Shown: positions 37,971-42,770 of the stretch, in pieces
How the letters are laid out: every line of letters starts with the position of its first letter
Numbering within the stretch: position 1 is the stretch's first letter
Virus record (IMG/VR): IMGVR_UViG_3300047474_000681
Length of the DNA: 64,000 nucleotides
Source: an uncultured virus (IMG/VR IMGVR_UViG_3300047474_000681)
Taxonomy: Duplodnaviria; Heunggongvirae; Uroviricota; Caudoviricetes
Reading direction: 5' to 3' (one strand)
Notes under the pieces: model-generated
The model's database searches: none
Told to the model about the DNA's origin: nothing
Seen by the model: the letters and a program-made list of their open reading frames with translations, nothing else
Translations under genes and position numbers: made by a program

Positions 37971-38960
37971 ATGGCAGATCAAAACAAATTTGAAAAAATG
38001 CTAGAGCTTCTTGTCAACGAAGACAAAGAAGCAGCACAAGAATTATTCCACGAGATTGTAGTAGAAAAATCACGTGATATCTACGAAGGTTTATTAGAAG
38101 ACGAAGCTGAAGTTGAAGAAGCTACTGATGAAGAAGTAGATGAAGCAACTGACGAAGAAGTCGACGAGTCAGAAGAAGATTTAGACGAAGCTACTGATGA
38201 AGAAGTAGAAGAAGCAACTGACGAAGAAGTTGACGAAGGCTTTGACTTAGACGAGTTTGAAGTAGAAGCAGACCCGATGGCAAACATGGACCAAACAGGT
38301 GACTTAGCCGGTGACTTAGGTATGGACATGGACGGTGAAGAAGGCGACGAAGACGAAGGTGAAGAAGGCGATGTTGAAGATCGTGTAGAAGACCTAGAAG
38401 ATGCGCTAGATGACCTAAAAGCAGAATTTGAAAAAATGATGGCTGGCGATGACGAAGGCGACGACGATGAAGGCGAAGAAGAGCCAGAAGAAGAAGCATT
38501 TGCATTTGAAGCAGCAGACGAAGAAGTTGAAGAAGCTACAGACGAAGAAGTAGACGAAGCAACTGATGAAGAAGTAGATGAAGCAACTGACGAAGAAGTT
38601 GACGAATCAAAAGAACCACAAACAGCAGGCGAGCAAATGCGCGAGTATGTTGAAAAAGTATCAGCTACAATGGGCGACAACGGTGCAAACACCAAGTCAA
38701 CAGTAGCAGGTAAAAACGATATGGGCGGAACCGCAAGCAACTTGAACCAAGCTGGTACAGAAGCAGGCGTAGAAGCTAACAAAGGTAACCTTAAAGGTTC
38801 TGCACTAAGTGATCAGAATGCTAAGGATATGAATACCAAGAACGTAAATGTTCCTGGTGGTAAGGCAGCAAAAGCTGGCAAAACCGAACCTGGTCACGGC
38901 GCTGAAAAGAAGTCAAAGCCAGAGACAGCTGACAATAAGAAACCAACTATTGGCGGCTAA
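37971..38960 (+). CDS. Highly acidic prohead core/scaffold-type protein
   Basis: Glu/Asp-rich with EEVDEATD repeats; lies between portal and protease, the T4 gp67/68 position; strong SD. Confidence 0.75.
   Translation: MADQNKFEKMLELLVNEDKEAAQELFHEIVVEKSRDIYEGLLEDEAEVEEATDEEVDEATDEEVDESEEDLDEATDEEVEEATDEEVDEGFDLDEFEVEADPMANMDQTGDLAGDLGMDMDGEEGDEDEGEEGDVEDRVEDLEDALDDLKAEFEKMMAGDDEGDDDEGEEEPEEEAFAFEAADEEVEEATDEEVDEATDEEVDEATDEEVDESKEPQTAGEQMREYVEKVSATMGDNGANTKSTVAGKNDMGGTASNLNQAGTEAGVEANKGNLKGSALSDQNAKDMNTKNVNVPGGKAAKAGKTEPGHGAEKKSKPETADNKKPTIGG
38104..38606 (+). repeat. 24-nt tandem repeats encoding EEV(D/E)EATD, in two clusters
   Basis: Variants of GAAGAAGTAGATGAAGCAACTGAC at ~38104-38237 and ~38520-38606. 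Confidence 0.85.
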
Positions 38961-40726: not shown

Positions 40727-41905
40727 ATGATGTCAGAACTATTAGAAAGCCGCTGGGTAGACACCAAAACTGCTCTTCTTGAAGGCTTGCAAGGCAACAA
40801 GAAGTCTGTTATGGCTGCTACGCTAGAAAATACCCGCAAGTACTTGTCAGAGAGTGCTACAGCTGGTGCAACAAGCGCGGGCAACGTTGCAACACTAAAC
40901 CGTGTGATTCTTCCAGTAATCAGACGTGTAATGCCAACCGTTATTGCTAACGAGTTAGTAGGCGTACAACCAATGACTGGTCCTGTGGGTCAAATCCACA
41001 CTCTACGTGTTCGTTATTCAGACACAGTAGGGACAGGCGCATCAGGTGCAACAGCAGGCGAAGAAGCTTTAAGCCCATTCAAAATTGCTGAAGCATATTC
41101 AGGTAATGCTACATCAGGTAAAGCTGATGCAACAGCAGCACTTGAAGGTGAAGCCGGTAACAGAATGTCAATTCAAATCTTGAAACAGACAGTTGAAGCT
41201 AAGACACGTAAGTTGTCAGCTCGCTGGACGTTTGAAGCTGCACAAGACGCACAGTCTATGCACGGTATTGACGTTGAAGCAGAAATCATGGCTGCATTAG
41301 CACAAGAGATTACTGCTGAAATCGATCAAGAAGTACTAGCGTCTTTAGACACACTAGCTGGTGCTGCTGCTGAAACATATGTACAAACAGGTGTTTCAGG
41401 TACAGCTACATTCGTAGGTGACGAGCATGCCGCATTGGCAGTGCAGATCAACCGCGTAAGTAACTTGATTGCACAGCGCACACGTAGAGGTGCAGGTAAC
41501 TGGGCTGTTGTATCGCCATTCGCGTTAACAATCCTACAATCTGCTACAACTTCAGCGTTTGCACGTACAACTGAAGGTGCTTTTGAAGCTCCAACTAACA
41601 CTAAGATGGTTGGTACTTTGAACAACGCTATGAAAGTGTATGTAAACACTTATGCTGCTGATGATTCAGCGGTACTAATCGGCTACAAAGGTTCAAGCGA
41701 ATCAGATGCAGCGGCATTCTATTGCCCATACATCCCGCTAATGAGCTCAGGAGTTGTATTGGATCCAGGTACATTTGAACCAACAGTATCATTCATGACA
41801 CGTTATGGATATGTTGAGTTGAATAACACTGCGTCATCGCTTGGTAACGCAGCTGACTACTTGGGTAAAGTAGACATTACTGACACAGCAGTTAGCTTTA
41901 GCTAA
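40727..41905 (+). CDS. Major capsid protein, T4 gp23-like
   Basis: LVGVQPMTGPVGQIHTLR, VEAKTRKLSARWTFEAAQD, AFYCPYIPL and FMTRYG. Confidence 0.97.
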   Translation: MMSELLESRWVDTKTALLEGLQGNKKSVMAATLENTRKYLSESATAGATSAGNVATLNRVILPVIRRVMPTVIANELVGVQPMTGPVGQIHTLRVRYSDTVGTGASGATAGEEALSPFKIAEAYSGNATSGKADATAALEGEAGNRMSIQILKQTVEAKTRKLSARWTFEAAQDAQSMHGIDVEAEIMAALAQEITAEIDQEVLASLDTLAGAAAETYVQTGVSGTATFVGDEHAALAVQINRVSNLIAQRTRRGAGNWAVVSPFALTILQSATTSAFARTTEGAFEAPTNTKMVGTLNNAMKVYVNTYAADDSAVLIGYKGSSESDAAAFYCPYIPLMSSGVVLDPGTFEPTVSFMTRYGYVELNNTASSLGNAADYLGKVDITDTAVSFS

Positions 41906-41924
41906 GTTTAGTTTTACTAAACAG

Positions 41925-41953
41925 AAAATAGGTCCTACGGGGCCTATTTTTTT
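41925..41953 (+). terminator. Intrinsic terminator after the capsid gene
   Basis: AAAATAGGTCC-TACG-GGGCCTATTTTTTT (C-UACG-G loop, U tract). Confidence 0.9.
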
Positions 41954-41974
41954 GACTTTTTTTTAAAAAAGTGG

Positions 41975-42002
41975 TTGACATTGTTTGTAATGATGTTATA
42001 TT
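41975..42002 (+). promoter_or_regulatory. Sigma70-type promoter with no downstream ORF
   Basis: TTGACA 41975-41980, 16-nt spacer, extended -10 TGtTATATT 41994-42002, A/T tract upstream. Confidence 0.75.
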
Positions 42003-42008
42003 AGTTAC

Positions 42009-42255
42009 ATAAGTTAGGCGACGGTCTAAGTTAGATAGTGCAAGGAACGGTGTTGCGTAGTGACACAACTTGGCTAGTAGCTGTAGTGGCAACATATGAT
42101 TGTAGAGATACAAAGATATGTTTTTGGAAGTAACTATCCGATGCTAGGCTCCTCCGAATTTAGCGAGAGCTACTAGGAGGTTGTTGGTATTCTCAAAGTC
42201 CAACCTATCACTTTATTATTAAAAAGCTCGATACTTAACTGTGTCGGGCTTTTTT
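42009..42255 (+). ncRNA. Candidate stand-alone structured ncRNA (~240 nt)
   Basis: Bounded by a promoter and a terminator, contains several helices, no + strand ORF in the track. See findings. Confidence 0.7.
42221..42255 (+). terminator. Intrinsic terminator
   Basis: AAAAAGCTCGATAC-TTAACT-GTGTCGGGCTTTTTT. Confidence 0.85.
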
Positions 42256-42365
42256 CTTATTTGATAAATACTATTGTCAGATAGTGTGCCGCAAGGCGGA
42301 CTTATGCTGCACCACAGCGTAGCTCATAGAACGGGCATAGGACTACTTTTTATAGGAGAAAACAA

Positions 42366-42770
42366 ATGGGAAGACCACTAAACAAAAGATATTTTGGAGA
42401 GCCGACAGCTGGCGGCAATGAAATTAAAGTACGTTATCGTGCTACAGGACAAGCAGAAGCAAACGGCTGGATTGTAAAGCAATTAGGATCTAAAAAGTTC
42501 CGTTGCTATGATGGTACTAATACAATGGATTGTACTTTAGTTGACAAATCGCAAGGTACATTAGATGTAGGCGAGATGACTATTACAGTTAAAGACGATG
42601 GCGGAACAGCTCGTCAAGTTACTAAAATTGCAGGACGTAAAGTAACACTTGACACAGGCGCAAGTATTGCTTGGAACTTCAGTGATGCAACTGATGACAA
42701 TGCAGTTGAAATGGAAGAAGCTGGTACAGATGATTCATTCACTGACGCAGACGATTTTGAAGCTGACTAA
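42366..42770 (+). CDS. Hypothetical virion protein
   Basis: 134 aa (MGRPLNKRYFG...), with its own late promoter ATAAATA 42264-42270, strong SD and terminator. Confidence 0.8.
   Translation: MGRPLNKRYFGEPTAGGNEIKVRYRATGQAEANGWIVKQLGSKKFRCYDGTNTMDCTLVDKSQGTLDVGEMTITVKDDGGTARQVTKIAGRKVTLDTGASIAWNFSDATDDNAVEMEEAGTDDSFTDADDFEAD

What the first reader, a model, noticed from the sequence alone, without database searches (positions are those of the whole stretch)
41975..42255. Self-contained ORF-less transcription unit behind the major capsid gene: second ncRNA candidate
Seen: the capsid terminator is followed immediately by a sigma70 promoter (TTGACA 41975, extended -10), ~210 nt of structured sequence and a second terminator (42221-55). 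Helices: TTAGGC-GACG-GTCTAA (42014-29); GTGTTGC-GTA-GTGACAC (42050-66); a perfect 9-bp long-range pair CTAGTAGCT/AGCTACTAG (42074-82/42168-76); AACATAT/ATATGTT enclosing TTGTA-GAGA-TACAA (42091-122); GCTAGG/TTTAGC (42143-64), whose loop CCTCC (42151-55) can pair with GGAGG (42176-80); AGGTTG/CAACCT (42178-83/42201-06). Inference: an early, host-polymerase-transcribed RNA sitting inside a late region. The looped CCUCC equals the anti-Shine-Dalgarno sequence, so it is either a pseudoknot arm or a seed able to pair with ribosome-binding sites in trans.
Basis: partly seen in the sequence, partly recalled or inferred. Interest (0 to 1): 0.8.

Follow-up and report, generated by a model that had tools for sequence, protein, structure and literature searches.

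The report
Stand-alone manA RNA gene, giant phage
The gene-free stretch behind the capsid gene of this uncultured marine giant phage is a real small-RNA gene, but it belongs to an already described family (manA RNA, recently reported to build RNA-only cages) and here has its own promoter and terminator instead of leading into a gene.

Summary
The architecture is real. Behind the capsid gene lie terminator T1 (41923-52), a sigma70-type promoter with extended -10 (41975-42002), about 205 nt of structured RNA, and terminator T2 (42221-54).

The RNA is not a new class. It is a divergent member of the manA family (Rfam RF01745): 44.5 bits end-to-end, below the 55.2 cut-off, while a homologous copy in the same spacer of a relative scores 85.7.

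The family fold is supported by covariation: 94.7% of cells paired in 19 distinct sequences and 92.6% in 68 more. Three are not conserved (64.9% paired). CCUCC is not a looped anti-Shine-Dalgarno seed; it is one strand of a covarying helix.

A promoter precedes the RNA in 84 of 84 contexts. A terminator follows in 42 of 49 copies behind the capsid gene, and a tRNA follows directly in two others. Near-identical phages have lost the promoter and RNA.

No conserved antiterminator and no constant downstream gene were found. I read it as a free ~245-nt RNA. Its covarying loop-loop complementarity matches the kissing loops that build manA pentamers, decamers and 60-mer cages in a 2026 cryo-EM preprint.

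This scan has noted stand-alone manA cassettes before on other DNA.

The parts
40727..41905 (+). Major capsid protein gene (T4 gp23-like), upstream neighbour
   Evidence: 392-aa ORF. tblastn gives 67-71% identity to the capsid proteins of jumbo phages: Vibrio phage 2.275.O, PA5oct and GAP32.
41923..41952 (+). T1, intrinsic terminator of the capsid gene
   Evidence: 13-pair stem followed by a T-run. It is kept in relatives both with and without the RNA.
41975..42002 (+). Sigma70-type promoter: -35 TTGACA (41975-80), TG (41994-95), -10 TATATT (41997-42002); start predicted near 42009
   Evidence: 11 of 12 consensus matches with TG before the -10. It is unique of its kind on the + strand of the window. 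A TTGnn...TAnnnT promoter-like site lies directly upstream of the RNA in 84 of 84 distinct contexts (relaxed pattern; strict pattern 61 of 84). The start site is inferred from spacing, not measured.
42014..42214 (+). manA-family RNA core (own model R1: 42010-42216). Helices, numbered by me in order along the Rfam consensus: P1 42014-19/42024-29; closing helix 42034-38/42205-09; P3 42041-44/42069-72 and 42050-56/42060-66; junction helix 42074-79/42142-47; P5 42080-81/42089-90; P6 42092-97/42116-21 with inner 42100-04/42109-13; P7 42124-28/42137-41; P8 42151-55/42176-80 with inner 42161-64/42169-72; P9 42183-87/42200-04
   Evidence: RF01745: 44.5 bits, model positions 1-192 of 192, E 3.4e-8 for the whole window. 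All 60 pairs are standard pairs in the window. Across relatives 94.7% of cells pair and 54 of 60 pairs show changes on both sides; in a second set 92.6% pair and 48 of 60 show such changes.
42084..42087 (+). Loop L5 tetrad UAGU, complementary to the L7 tetrad ACUA (42133-36)
   Evidence: 95.6% paired across relatives; the second pair is AU:8 GC:6 GU:2. A complementary run of at least 4 occurs in 43 of 61 further sequences.
42133..42136 (+). Loop L7 tetrad ACUA, partner of L5
42165..42168 (+). Loop L8 GAGA, complementary to UCUC in L9 (42191-94)
   Evidence: The partners covary: GAGA/UCUC, AUGA/UCAU, CAGA/UCUG, GUGG/UCAC. In 61 further sequences the mean complementary run is 3.87, against 3.38 +/- 0.07 with shuffled partners (0 of 500 shuffles as high).
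42191..42194 (+). Loop L9 tetrad UCUC, partner of L8
42221..42254 (+). T2, intrinsic terminator ending the RNA unit (T-run to 42255)
   Evidence: 14-pair stem including G-U pairs, followed by a T-run. It is present in the full-length minimum-energy fold. Relatives carry 40 distinct terminator hairpins at this place. T2 is retained as an orphan in the deletion variants L008, L016 and L046.
42263..42270 (+). GATAAATA, a motif like the T4 late promoter (consensus TATAAATA is recalled), in front of the next unit
   Evidence: It is conserved at this place in relatives. As a word it is not enriched in the window, so the promoter reading is an inference.
42285..42368 (+). freshwater-2 RNA (RF02980), leader of the next gene, including its Shine-Dalgarno sequence and ATG
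   Evidence: 64.2 bits against a gathering score of 49.9. Found upstream of the homologous gene in 22 of 22 viral loci scanned, 19 of them at or above the gathering score.
42366..42770 (+). 134-aa protein of unknown function, downstream neighbour
   Evidence: ORF. No Pfam or PHROG family. 100 relatives in viral contigs, of which the best 80 were kept.

Best explanation
Window 42009-42255 is a small-RNA gene. It is a divergent member of the manA RNA family (Rfam RF01745), carried as a promoter-RNA-terminator unit in a hypervariable spacer between the major capsid gene and the next structural gene of an uncultured marine jumbo myovirus.

Host RNA polymerase with sigma70 would start near 42009, five bases before the first helix. 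Transcription would stop at the intrinsic terminator T2, releasing a free RNA of about 245 nt and not the leader of an mRNA. This step is inferred.

The RNA folds into the manA core: a 5' hairpin, then a closing helix that encloses P3, a three-hairpin junction, P8 and P9. This fold is shown by covariation.

The loops are mutually complementary, L5 with L7 and L8 with L9, and they covary (shown). By analogy with the cryo-EM preprint on other manA RNAs, I take these as intermolecular kissing loops that join copies into pentamer-based closed oligomers. On this reading the free, multimeric RNA is the active product: a scaffold, shell or decoy made during infection. This last step is an inference.

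My odds:
- manA family member: 0.95
- autonomous, constitutively terminated transcript: 0.7
- self-assembly in the cell: 0.3-0.35

What the assembled RNA does for the phage is unknown. The unit is dispensable, because near-identical phages lack it.
For: Family membership:
- The window matches RF01745 end-to-end: 44.5 bits, E 6.9e-10 for the local search and 3.4e-8 for the whole window.
- Copies that align with the window's RNA occupy the same spacer. They score 85.7 bits in L061 (above the gathering score) and 39-51 bits in 12 others; 12 of 13 loci scanned gave a hit, plus L034.
- Control: the cyanophage P-SSM2 copy scores 181.6 bits.

Fold:
- 94.7% of cells are paired and 54 of 60 pairs change on both sides; slid controls give 35-42% paired.
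- In 68 further distinct sequences 92.6% are paired and 48 of 60 pairs change on both sides; slid controls give 36-45%.

Autonomy:
- A promoter-like site lies directly upstream in 84 of 84 contexts.
- A terminator follows in 50 of 78 contexts overall and in 42 of 49 behind the capsid gene, with 40 distinct hairpin sequences.
- In two terminator-less copies a tRNA-Gly starts 4 nt after the RNA, which would also give a processed, discrete 3' end.
- The terminator arms show no excess complementarity to the RNA body in 13 homologs: 5' arms z -1.4 to +1.6; 3' arms z -1.1 to +1.9 apart from two outliers at -2.1 and -3.0. The terminator forms in 11 of 13 full-length minimum-energy folds, wholly absent in one and partly rearranged in another.
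- The gene that follows varies: p134, a CHAP lipoprotein gene, or a 134-139-aa gene.
- A motif like a late promoter stands between T2 and the next gene.
- L008, L016 and L046 lack the promoter and RNA but keep T1 and T2. In L008 and L016 the capsid protein is 99.5-99.7% identical to the window's, and in L046 82%.

Loop-loop contacts:
- (numbers are given under the parts).

Oligomers:
- Preprint 10.64898/2026.07.01.735769; I read passages, section 8 and the outline.

Presence in RNA libraries:
- Contigs of 4 of 4 marine metatranscriptome runs, from 4 studies, cover the RNA body.
Against: - The window copy is below Rfam's gathering score (44.5 against 55.2).
- No transcript ends were seen. The RNA-library data are assembled contigs, which cannot show a start, an end or a strand, and which may contain DNA. 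One contig runs from the capsid gene across T1 into the RNA (X1, 41537-42213), as read-through or DNA would.
- 28 of 78 family contexts have no terminator. 15 of these run on, past a TATAAATA-like motif, towards a gene, mostly gp32. In P-SSM2 the RNA abuts an ORF 15 nt downstream. In those cases manA does look like a leader, so a cis role of the fold is not excluded here.
- T2 also exists without the RNA in L008, L016 and L046. It could therefore be an older second terminator and not part of the unit.
- Sequence alone cannot tell an intermolecular loop-loop pairing from an intramolecular one.
- My loop numbers are matched to the preprint's by order along the consensus. I saw no figure and none of its sequences.
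- The L8-L9 partner-shuffle test was not significant in the small set (261 of 1000). Shuffling partners also ignores relatedness.
- Oligomers were shown only in vitro, at about 3 mg/mL RNA and 10 mM Mg.
Confidence: 0.6

Rival explanations
1. A cis-acting control element. The manA fold would be a riboswitch-like sensor or a processive antitermination RNA. It would decide whether transcripts from the sigma70 promoter stop at T2 or read on into freshwater-2/p134, giving conditional early expression of a late gene.
For: - Rfam and Weinberg 2010 class manA as a candidate cis-regulator or riboswitch.
- Promoter, then structured RNA, then terminator is the classic layout of an attenuator.
- 28 of 78 family contexts lack a terminator and lead towards genes. 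In P-SSM2 the RNA abuts an ORF.
- L034 and its relatives have the RNA without a terminator directly before the p134 leader.
Against: - There is no conserved alternative pairing between the terminator arms and the RNA body, although the arms differ widely and the RNA's 3' part is nearly invariant.
- The downstream gene is not constant.
- p134 keeps its own promoter-like motif and leader, and is present without manA in 54 of 80 loci.
- In two copies a tRNA follows directly.
- No ligand is known. The papers found by two searches report none in the passages I read.
Confidence: 0.2
2. The 3' trailer of the capsid message. The structured RNA would be made by read-through of T1 and would stabilise or process the abundant late capsid mRNA. 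The sigma70-like site would be incidental.
For: One metatranscriptome contig spans 41537-42213 with a single mismatch. The RNA lies behind the capsid gene in 56 of 86 contexts.
Against: - T1 is a strong terminator and is conserved.
- The promoter is conserved at a fixed distance in 84 of 84 contexts, including 28 with no capsid gene found in the flank, 25 of them with at least 1,300 nt of flank seen.
- Other genes can lie between the capsid gene and the RNA: L007, L009 and L032 have 1.2-1.4 kb between them.
- A contig across two features does not show a single transcript, and it may be DNA.
Confidence: 0.05
3. A small protein gene. One of the short ORFs in the stretch (42038-42133, 31 aa; 42096-42176, 26 aa; or minus strand 41898-42113, 71 aa) would be the real product.
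For: The ORFs exist. Relatives also have short ORFs over the RNA.
Against: - Substitutions are compensatory in helices, not synonymous.
- ORF lengths and frames differ between relatives: 31, 44, 53, 98 and 126 aa.
- Indels of 1-2 nt are common.
- No Shine-Dalgarno sequence lies before them (sequence).
- The stretch gives a full-length match to an RNA family model.
Confidence: 0.02

Closest known systems
manA RNA motif (Rfam RF01745; Weinberg et al. 2010, PMC2864571, passages read; cyanophage S-CREM1 paper PMC9964418, passages read)
   Same: The window gives an end-to-end match to the family model. It has the same helix order and the complementary L5/L7 loops. It comes from a marine phage. A sigma70-type promoter lies directly upstream, as in P-SSM2.
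   Different: The window copy scores below the gathering score. The closing helix is GAUAG/CUAUC instead of GGGAG/CUCCC. P6 carries an extra inner hairpin. The host genome is a jumbo myovirus with a PA5oct/GAP32-type capsid protein, not a cyanophage or Photobacterium. The RNA is followed by a terminator, not by an auxiliary metabolic gene.
Self-assembling manA RNAs (bioRxiv 10.64898/2026.07.01.735769; passages, section 8 and outline read)
   Same: They belong to the same Rfam family. The kissing-loop pairs named there (L5-L7', L8-L9', L3-L8') correspond, by order of helices, to the loop pairs that are complementary and covary here.
   Different: None of the preprint's sequences or figures could be compared. 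Its RNAs were studied in vitro only and are described there as 5' UTR elements. Here natural transcript boundaries are predicted.
ROOL and GOLLD, large phage/prophage-associated RNAs reported to form RNA-only multimeric cages
   Same: They are phage-borne, ORF-less structured RNAs of unknown function that form homo-oligomers. They are often found near tRNAs.
   Different: They are several hundred nucleotides long and are unrelated in sequence and fold. No Rfam hit to them was found here.
Terminated riboswitch RNAs that act in trans, and cis-acting antitermination RNAs such as HK022 put or the EAR element (recalled, not looked up)
   Same: The layout is the same: a promoter, a conserved folded RNA, then a terminator.
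   Different: No ligand, no antiterminator pairing and no constant downstream operon were found here.

Membership tests
manA RNA (RF01745) | Significant end-to-end match to the family covariance model | tested here: met
   44.5 bits over model positions 1-192 of 192; E 3.4e-8 for the 64-kb window. This is below Rfam's curated gathering score of 55.2, so Rfam's own pipeline would not list it. An alignable homologous copy in the same spacer (L061) scores 85.7.
manA RNA (RF01745) | Consensus architecture (5' hairpin; closing helix around P3, a three-hairpin junction, P8 and P9) kept by compensatory change | tested here: met
   60 of 60 pairs form in the window. 94.7% of cells are paired and 54 of 60 pairs change on both sides. 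In a second set 92.6% are paired and 48 of 60 change on both sides. These alignments were fitted to the model, which favours the structure; slid controls give 35-45% paired.
manA RNA (RF01745) | Complementary L5 (GUGGUG-type) and L7 (UAACCA-type) loops | tested here: met
   The window has UAGU/ACUA. The Rfam consensus has UGGU/ACCA, and so does P-SSM2, whose loops I read by eye from its sequence. Group B has GGUA/UACC.
manA RNA (RF01745) | Usual context (a tendency, not a defining feature): 5' leader directly in front of a gene | tested here: not met
   The window has an intrinsic terminator 6 nt after the Rfam match (11 nt after the closing helix), then a separate leader for the next gene. 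42 of 49 copies behind the capsid gene are the same.
manA RNA (RF01745) | Pentamer-based homo-oligomers (preprint) | not testable with these tools
   Only loop complementarity and covariation could be checked.
Riboswitch with terminator expression platform | Mutually exclusive terminator / antiterminator pairing conserved across relatives | tested here: not met
   Duplex energies of the terminator arms against the RNA body are no better than shuffled arms in 13 homologs, apart from two 3'-arm outliers.
Riboswitch with terminator expression platform | Constant class of regulated downstream genes | tested here: not met
   The downstream gene varies: p134, a CHAP lipoprotein gene, a 134-139-aa gene, tRNA-Gly, gp32 and others.
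Riboswitch with terminator expression platform | Binding of a specific ligand | not testable with these tools
   None is reported in the passages read.
Stand-alone small-RNA gene | Own promoter and own terminator, both conserved; no conserved ORF | tested here: met
   Promoter in 84 of 84 contexts. Terminator in 50 of 78 contexts, and in 42 of 49 behind the capsid gene. ORFs are not conserved.
Stand-alone small-RNA gene | Discrete transcript with defined ends | tested here: inconclusive
   Only assembled contigs of RNA libraries were available. They cover the RNA in 4 of 4 runs but cannot show ends.
freshwater-2 RNA (RF02980; neighbouring element) | Score at or above the gathering score | tested here: met
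   64.2 against 49.9 bits at 42285-42368.

The most novel reading that the evidence does not exclude
The phage makes a discrete ~245-nt manA RNA that assembles in the infected cell into closed RNA-only oligomers (rings or a 60-mer shell) through the covarying L5-L7' and L8-L9' loop contacts. It would be a virus-encoded RNA nanostructure, gained and lost as a portable cassette next to the capsid gene, that encloses, concentrates or decoys a host or phage component. The terminator-bounded and tRNA-bounded copies would then be the natural, free form of the cage-forming RNA. The leader copies known from cyanophages would be a derived or dual-use form.
Probability: 0.25. Interest if true: 0.85.

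Novelty: new variant of a known kind. Interest (0 to 1): 0.5.

Why it matters
manA has been an orphan 'riboswitch candidate' since 2010. A 2026 preprint shows that it builds RNA-only cages in vitro but gives no biological setting.

This locus and its relatives supply that setting:
- Predicted natural 5' and 3' ends of a free RNA.
- A promoter of host type.
- A subfamily in marine viral contigs: at least 120 stretches match one conserved pattern, and 74 of the 80 fetched hold a full copy.
- Natural deletion variants that show the unit is dispensable.
- Covarying loop-loop contacts that can be mutated.

Together these make the question 'what do manA assemblies do in an infected cell?' directly testable.

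The work also shows that Rfam's cut-off misses this subfamily, and that the spacer behind the capsid gene of these giant phages collects RNA elements: manA, the glutamine riboswitch, freshwater-2 and a tRNA.

Tried and rejected
- **The window's own genome.** It is not held. I used the nearest record, G001, whose copy scores the same (44.5 bits) and whose DNA over 41906-42365 is identical.
- **Nucleotide searches.** blastn of 41900-42420 and of the L061 RNA against 50,697 phage records found nothing.
- **Cultured relatives.** Vibrio phage 2.275.O, Phosso, PA5oct and GAP32 have only about 90-120 nt between the capsid gene and the next annotated gene. None of the four has manA, freshwater-2 or a glutamine riboswitch there.
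- **Paper search for 'freshwater-2'.** It returned only unrelated papers.
- **Supplements of Weinberg 2010.** They gave the seed alignment and a count, but no text on terminators.
- **Larger related contigs.** An Rfam-based search of five of them found only the L061 copy. It missed L007's copy, which my model finds at 243 bits, so the Rfam model is insensitive to this subgroup.
- **Metatranscriptome contigs.** All four runs' contigs over the RNA stop or diverge at 42202-42216. They then continue with other letters, in two cases visibly another strain's terminator sequence. The fall in depth after 42212 is therefore not evidence of termination.
- **Loop tests.** With loops re-trimmed by RNAfold the contrasts were weak. 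In the set of 16 sequences L8-L9 was not significant (261 of 1000), while L3-L8 (0 of 1000) and L3-L5 (1 of 1000) were. In the set of 61, L1-L5, L3-L5 and L3-L8 also exceeded every shuffle, which may be subgroup structure and not contact.
- **NATAAATA as a late promoter.** The word occurs 9 times on the + strand and 3 times on the - strand in the window. My arithmetic from the base counts gives a rough expectation of about 23 per strand. The word is therefore not enriched, and the reading rests only on its position and conservation.
- **First scripts.** My first promoter pattern missed the known site (corrected). My first terminator detector missed obvious terminators (replaced).
- **p134.** It has no Pfam or PHROG family and no similarity to the genes next to the capsid gene in 2.275.O or PA5oct.
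Full report
**What is there**

The window is a structural-gene block of a jumbo myovirus. The 392-aa product of 40727-41905 is 67-71% identical to the major capsid proteins of Vibrio phage 2.275.O, Sinorhizobium phage Phosso, PA5oct and GAP32, all 286-469 kb. A related uncultured record with direct terminal repeats is 344 kb.

Behind the capsid gene lie, in order:
- Terminator T1 (41923-52).
- A sigma70-type promoter: TTGACA at 41975, a 16-nt spacer, TG, then TATATT ending at 42002 (11 of 12 matches).
- About 205 nt without a credible ORF.
- A second terminator, T2 (42221-54).

The strand folds better than all 200 shuffles (z -3.73). Promoter-like words as a class are at chance level in this region (21 found, 20.3 expected). 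This site is, however, the only TTGAC plus TGn-extended -10 on the + strand of the 64 kb.

**What it is**

cmscan against Rfam 15 places 42014-42214 in the manA family (RF01745). The match is 44.5 bits over model positions 1-192 of 192, E 3.4e-8 for the whole window, but below the gathering score of 55.2. The next spacer, 42285-42368, is freshwater-2 RNA (RF02980) at 64.2 bits against 49.9, and it contains the Shine-Dalgarno sequence and ATG of the 134-aa gene that follows. These are the only two matches in the window at E <= 0.01.

To judge the sub-threshold match I fetched 80 viral-contig loci that encode relatives of the 134-aa protein. Copies that align with the window's RNA from promoter to terminator lie in the same spacer.
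- With Rfam, 12 of 13 such loci gave full-length manA matches of 39-85.7 bits. One, L061, was above the cut-off. L034 gave 50.9 bits.
- As a control, the known cyanophage P-SSM2 gave 181.6 bits. Syn9 and S-SM2 gave none.

I built a covariance model (R1) from nine copies, using the Rfam-derived structure mapped onto the window, where 60 of 60 pairs form. R1 finds the RNA once in the window, in 26 of the 80 viral loci, and in 0 of 4 loci from cultured jumbo phages.

**Structure**

On the 19 distinct sequences of that set, 94.7% of cells are standard pairs and 54 of 60 pairs change on both sides. With the 3' partners slid by 1-3 columns, only 35-42% pair.

Of the 80 fetched, 74 hold the RNA. On their 68 distinct sequences 92.6% of cells pair and 48 of 60 pairs change on both sides; slid controls give 36-45%. 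Both alignments were fitted to the model, which favours the structure, but the margin over the slid controls is large.

- In the family fold: 42014-29; 42050-66; 42091-122 with its inner hairpin; and CCTCC/GGAGG.
- Not conserved: the 9-bp 42074-82/42168-76, GCTAGG/TTTAGC and AGGTTG/CAACCT. Together these are 64.9% paired and hold mainly in the window's closest relatives.

CCUCC is the 5' strand of helix P8 and covaries with its partner. It is therefore neither looped nor a conserved anti-Shine-Dalgarno word.

**A unit of its own**

In 86 distinct contexts (both sets together):
- A TTGnn...TAnnnT promoter-like site lies directly upstream of the RNA in 84 of the 84 with enough flank (relaxed pattern). 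The strict pattern found 61 of 84, of which 52 have TG. The 23 it missed are printed and show the same boxes at slightly different offsets.
- The RNA's first helix begins about 5 nt after the predicted start. The same holds in P-SSM2, which has TTGACA, 17 nt, then TGcTATAAT.
- A terminator follows in 50 of 78 contexts, with 40 different hairpin sequences.
- Behind the capsid gene a terminator follows in 42 of 49 contexts. Elsewhere it follows in 7 of 25.
- Two copies behind the capsid gene that lack a terminator are followed after 4 nt by a tRNA-Gly. Its processing would also free the RNA; that is an inference.

The distance between the capsid gene and the p134 gene varies from 149 to 2,050 nt in the loci where both were found (72 of 80; L078, at 2,326 nt, rests on a weak match). 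The spacer holds different small genes in different phages:
- A CHAP-domain lipoprotein gene.
- A gene for a 335-aa protein with a signal-peptide-like start.
- A gene for a 134-139-aa protein.

The RNA unit sits before or after these genes in different phages.

L008 and L016, whose capsid proteins are 99.5-99.7% identical to the window's, and L046, whose capsid protein is 82% identical, join T1 directly to T2. They lack the promoter and the RNA, with breakpoints in short ACTTT-type repeats. The unit is therefore accessory and recently gained or lost. Because T2 survives alone in these variants, I cannot say whether T2 came with the RNA.

**Is the terminator a switch?**

In 13 homologs with very different terminators, neither terminator arm is more complementary to the RNA body than shuffled arms. 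The 5' arms give z -1.4 to +1.6. The 3' arms give z -1.1 to +1.9, with two outliers at -2.1 and -3.0. The terminator hairpin forms in 11 of 13 full-length minimum-energy folds; it is wholly absent in one and partly rearranged in another.

The RNA's 3' part is nearly invariant while the terminators vary, so no conserved antiterminator is visible. After T2 comes GATAAATA (42263-70), a word like the T4 late promoter (consensus recalled), which is conserved at this place in relatives. It is followed by the freshwater-2 leader, which precedes the p134 homologue in 22 of 22 viral loci scanned.

p134 thus has its own signals, and it is present without manA in 54 of 80 loci. This argues against a dedicated cis-regulator of p134. 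It does not exclude conditional read-through.

**How it may work**

Weinberg et al. 2010 described manA as a probable cis-regulator or riboswitch of marine phages, with a questioned pseudoknot (passages). The S-CREM1 paper repeats this (passages).

A 2026 preprint reports cryo-EM structures of manA RNAs as pentamer-based decamers, octamers and a 60-mer icosahedral shell. These are held together by intermolecular kissing loops L5-L7', L8-L9' or L3-L8', and by a GNRA-receptor contact (passages, section 8 and outline; supplements closed).

I numbered the hairpins in their order along the Rfam consensus, which is my assumption. On that numbering:
- **L5-L7.** The window's L5 (UAGU, 42084-87) and L7 (ACUA, 42133-36) are complementary. 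The pair is 95.6% kept, with AU:8 GC:6 GU:2 at its second position.
- **L8-L9.** L8 (GAGA, 42165-68) and L9 (UCUC, 42191-94) are complementary and covary in the window's subgroup: GAGA/UCUC, AUGA/UCAU, CAGA/UCUG, GUGG/UCAC.
- **Larger set.** In 61 further distinct sequences the L8-L9 complementary run averages 3.87, against 3.38 +/- 0.07 with shuffled partners (0 of 500). L5-L7 averages 4.08 against 3.89 +/- 0.10 (10 of 500). L5-L9, equally complementary by composition, shows no excess.

These tests ignore relatedness, were weaker in the small set, and cannot tell contacts within one molecule from contacts between molecules.

My reading is a free ~245-nt RNA whose conserved fold and loop contacts, probably by self-assembly, are its function. 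What it acts on is unknown.

**Expression**

One search found 24 runs, 18 of them on record as RNA, that hold part of 41700-42700. In 4 of 4 marine metatranscriptome runs laid, from 4 studies, contigs cover the RNA body. They are contigs only, so they show no ends, strand or level, and DNA carry-over is possible.

**Novelty**

The family is known. In the two paper searches (nine papers held a manA term, and I read passages of three) I saw none of the following:
- manA as a terminator-bounded gene.
- manA in jumbo myoviruses.
- The RNA-rich spacer behind the capsid gene.

Earlier notes of this scan describe stand-alone manA-type cassettes on other DNA. They agree with this reading and did not shape it; I had reached the preprint and the family assignment before that call.

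Noticed in passing
window 42285-42368; L-loci about 2417-2503: The freshwater-2 RNA (RF02980) is the 5' leader of the 134-aa gene next to the capsid region. It was found in 22 of 22 viral loci scanned (19 at or above the gathering score) and in 0 of 4 cultured jumbo phages. The Rfam family therefore appears to belong to this phage lineage, in marine samples as well.
   Followed up: partly
L031 1943-1990, L009 1944-1991, L040 1928-1975, L047 1918-1965, L034 1845-1897, L021 1986-2033: Glutamine riboswitch aptamers (RF01739, 47.5-54.9 bits against a gathering score of 35) lie in the same spacer behind the capsid gene in 6 of 22 relatives scanned. In five of the six (not L021) they lie upstream of the manA unit. 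In L034 a 63-aa ORF follows the aptamer.
   Followed up: no
L113 1688-1761; L102 105-179: A tRNA-Gly (anticodon UCC) starts 4 nt after the manA RNA on the same strand, in the spacer behind the capsid gene. This is an RNA-only transcription unit.
   Followed up: partly
L115 1264-2175 and about 14 similar loci (L099, L100, L123, L133, L136, L165 and others): In other phage contigs, with no capsid gene nearby, the same manA subgroup lies behind a sigma70-like promoter and directly before a TATAAATA-like word. A leader of about 60 nt and a gp32 single-strand DNA-binding protein gene follow (Pfam PF08804, 150 bits), with no terminator between.
   Followed up: partly
L128, L109, L130, L091/L105/L106 (downstream ORFs): By their first residues alone, other downstream genes look like Hsp20, rubrerythrin, peroxiredoxin and a cytidylyltransferase. 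These resemble the auxiliary-gene contexts described for manA in 2010. They were not checked against Pfam.
   Followed up: no
L032 571-1578 and 1877-2395; L073 2028-2432; L040 1767-1913: The spacer between the capsid gene and p134 is a hotspot for small inserted genes. These include a gene for a 335-aa protein with a signal-peptide-like start (no Pfam), a CHAP-domain lipoprotein gene (PF05257), a gene for a 134-139-aa protein (no Pfam) and a gene for a 48-aa basic protein. Several start 4-6 nt after a TAAATA word and have no Shine-Dalgarno sequence, so their messages may be leaderless.
   Followed up: partly
L089 1440-1720 (P-SSM2 record 142776-143056): The P-SSM2 manA RNA (181.6 bits) has a near-consensus sigma70 promoter (TTGACA, 17 nt, TGcTATAAT) ending just before its first helix. 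It abuts the ATG of the ORF annotated purL, 15 nt after its last helix, with no visible Shine-Dalgarno sequence.
   Followed up: partly
window 37971-38960: A 329-aa extremely acidic protein with many EEATDEEVD-type repeats lies between the portal and prohead-protease genes. It is presumably a scaffold or internal head protein.
   Followed up: no
window 25122, 30595, 32112, 36996, 45080, 47567: NATAAATA words stand in spacers shortly before structural genes, for example 45080 before the 814-aa fibre-like gene. This fits T4-type late promoters, although the word is not enriched overall.
   Followed up: partly
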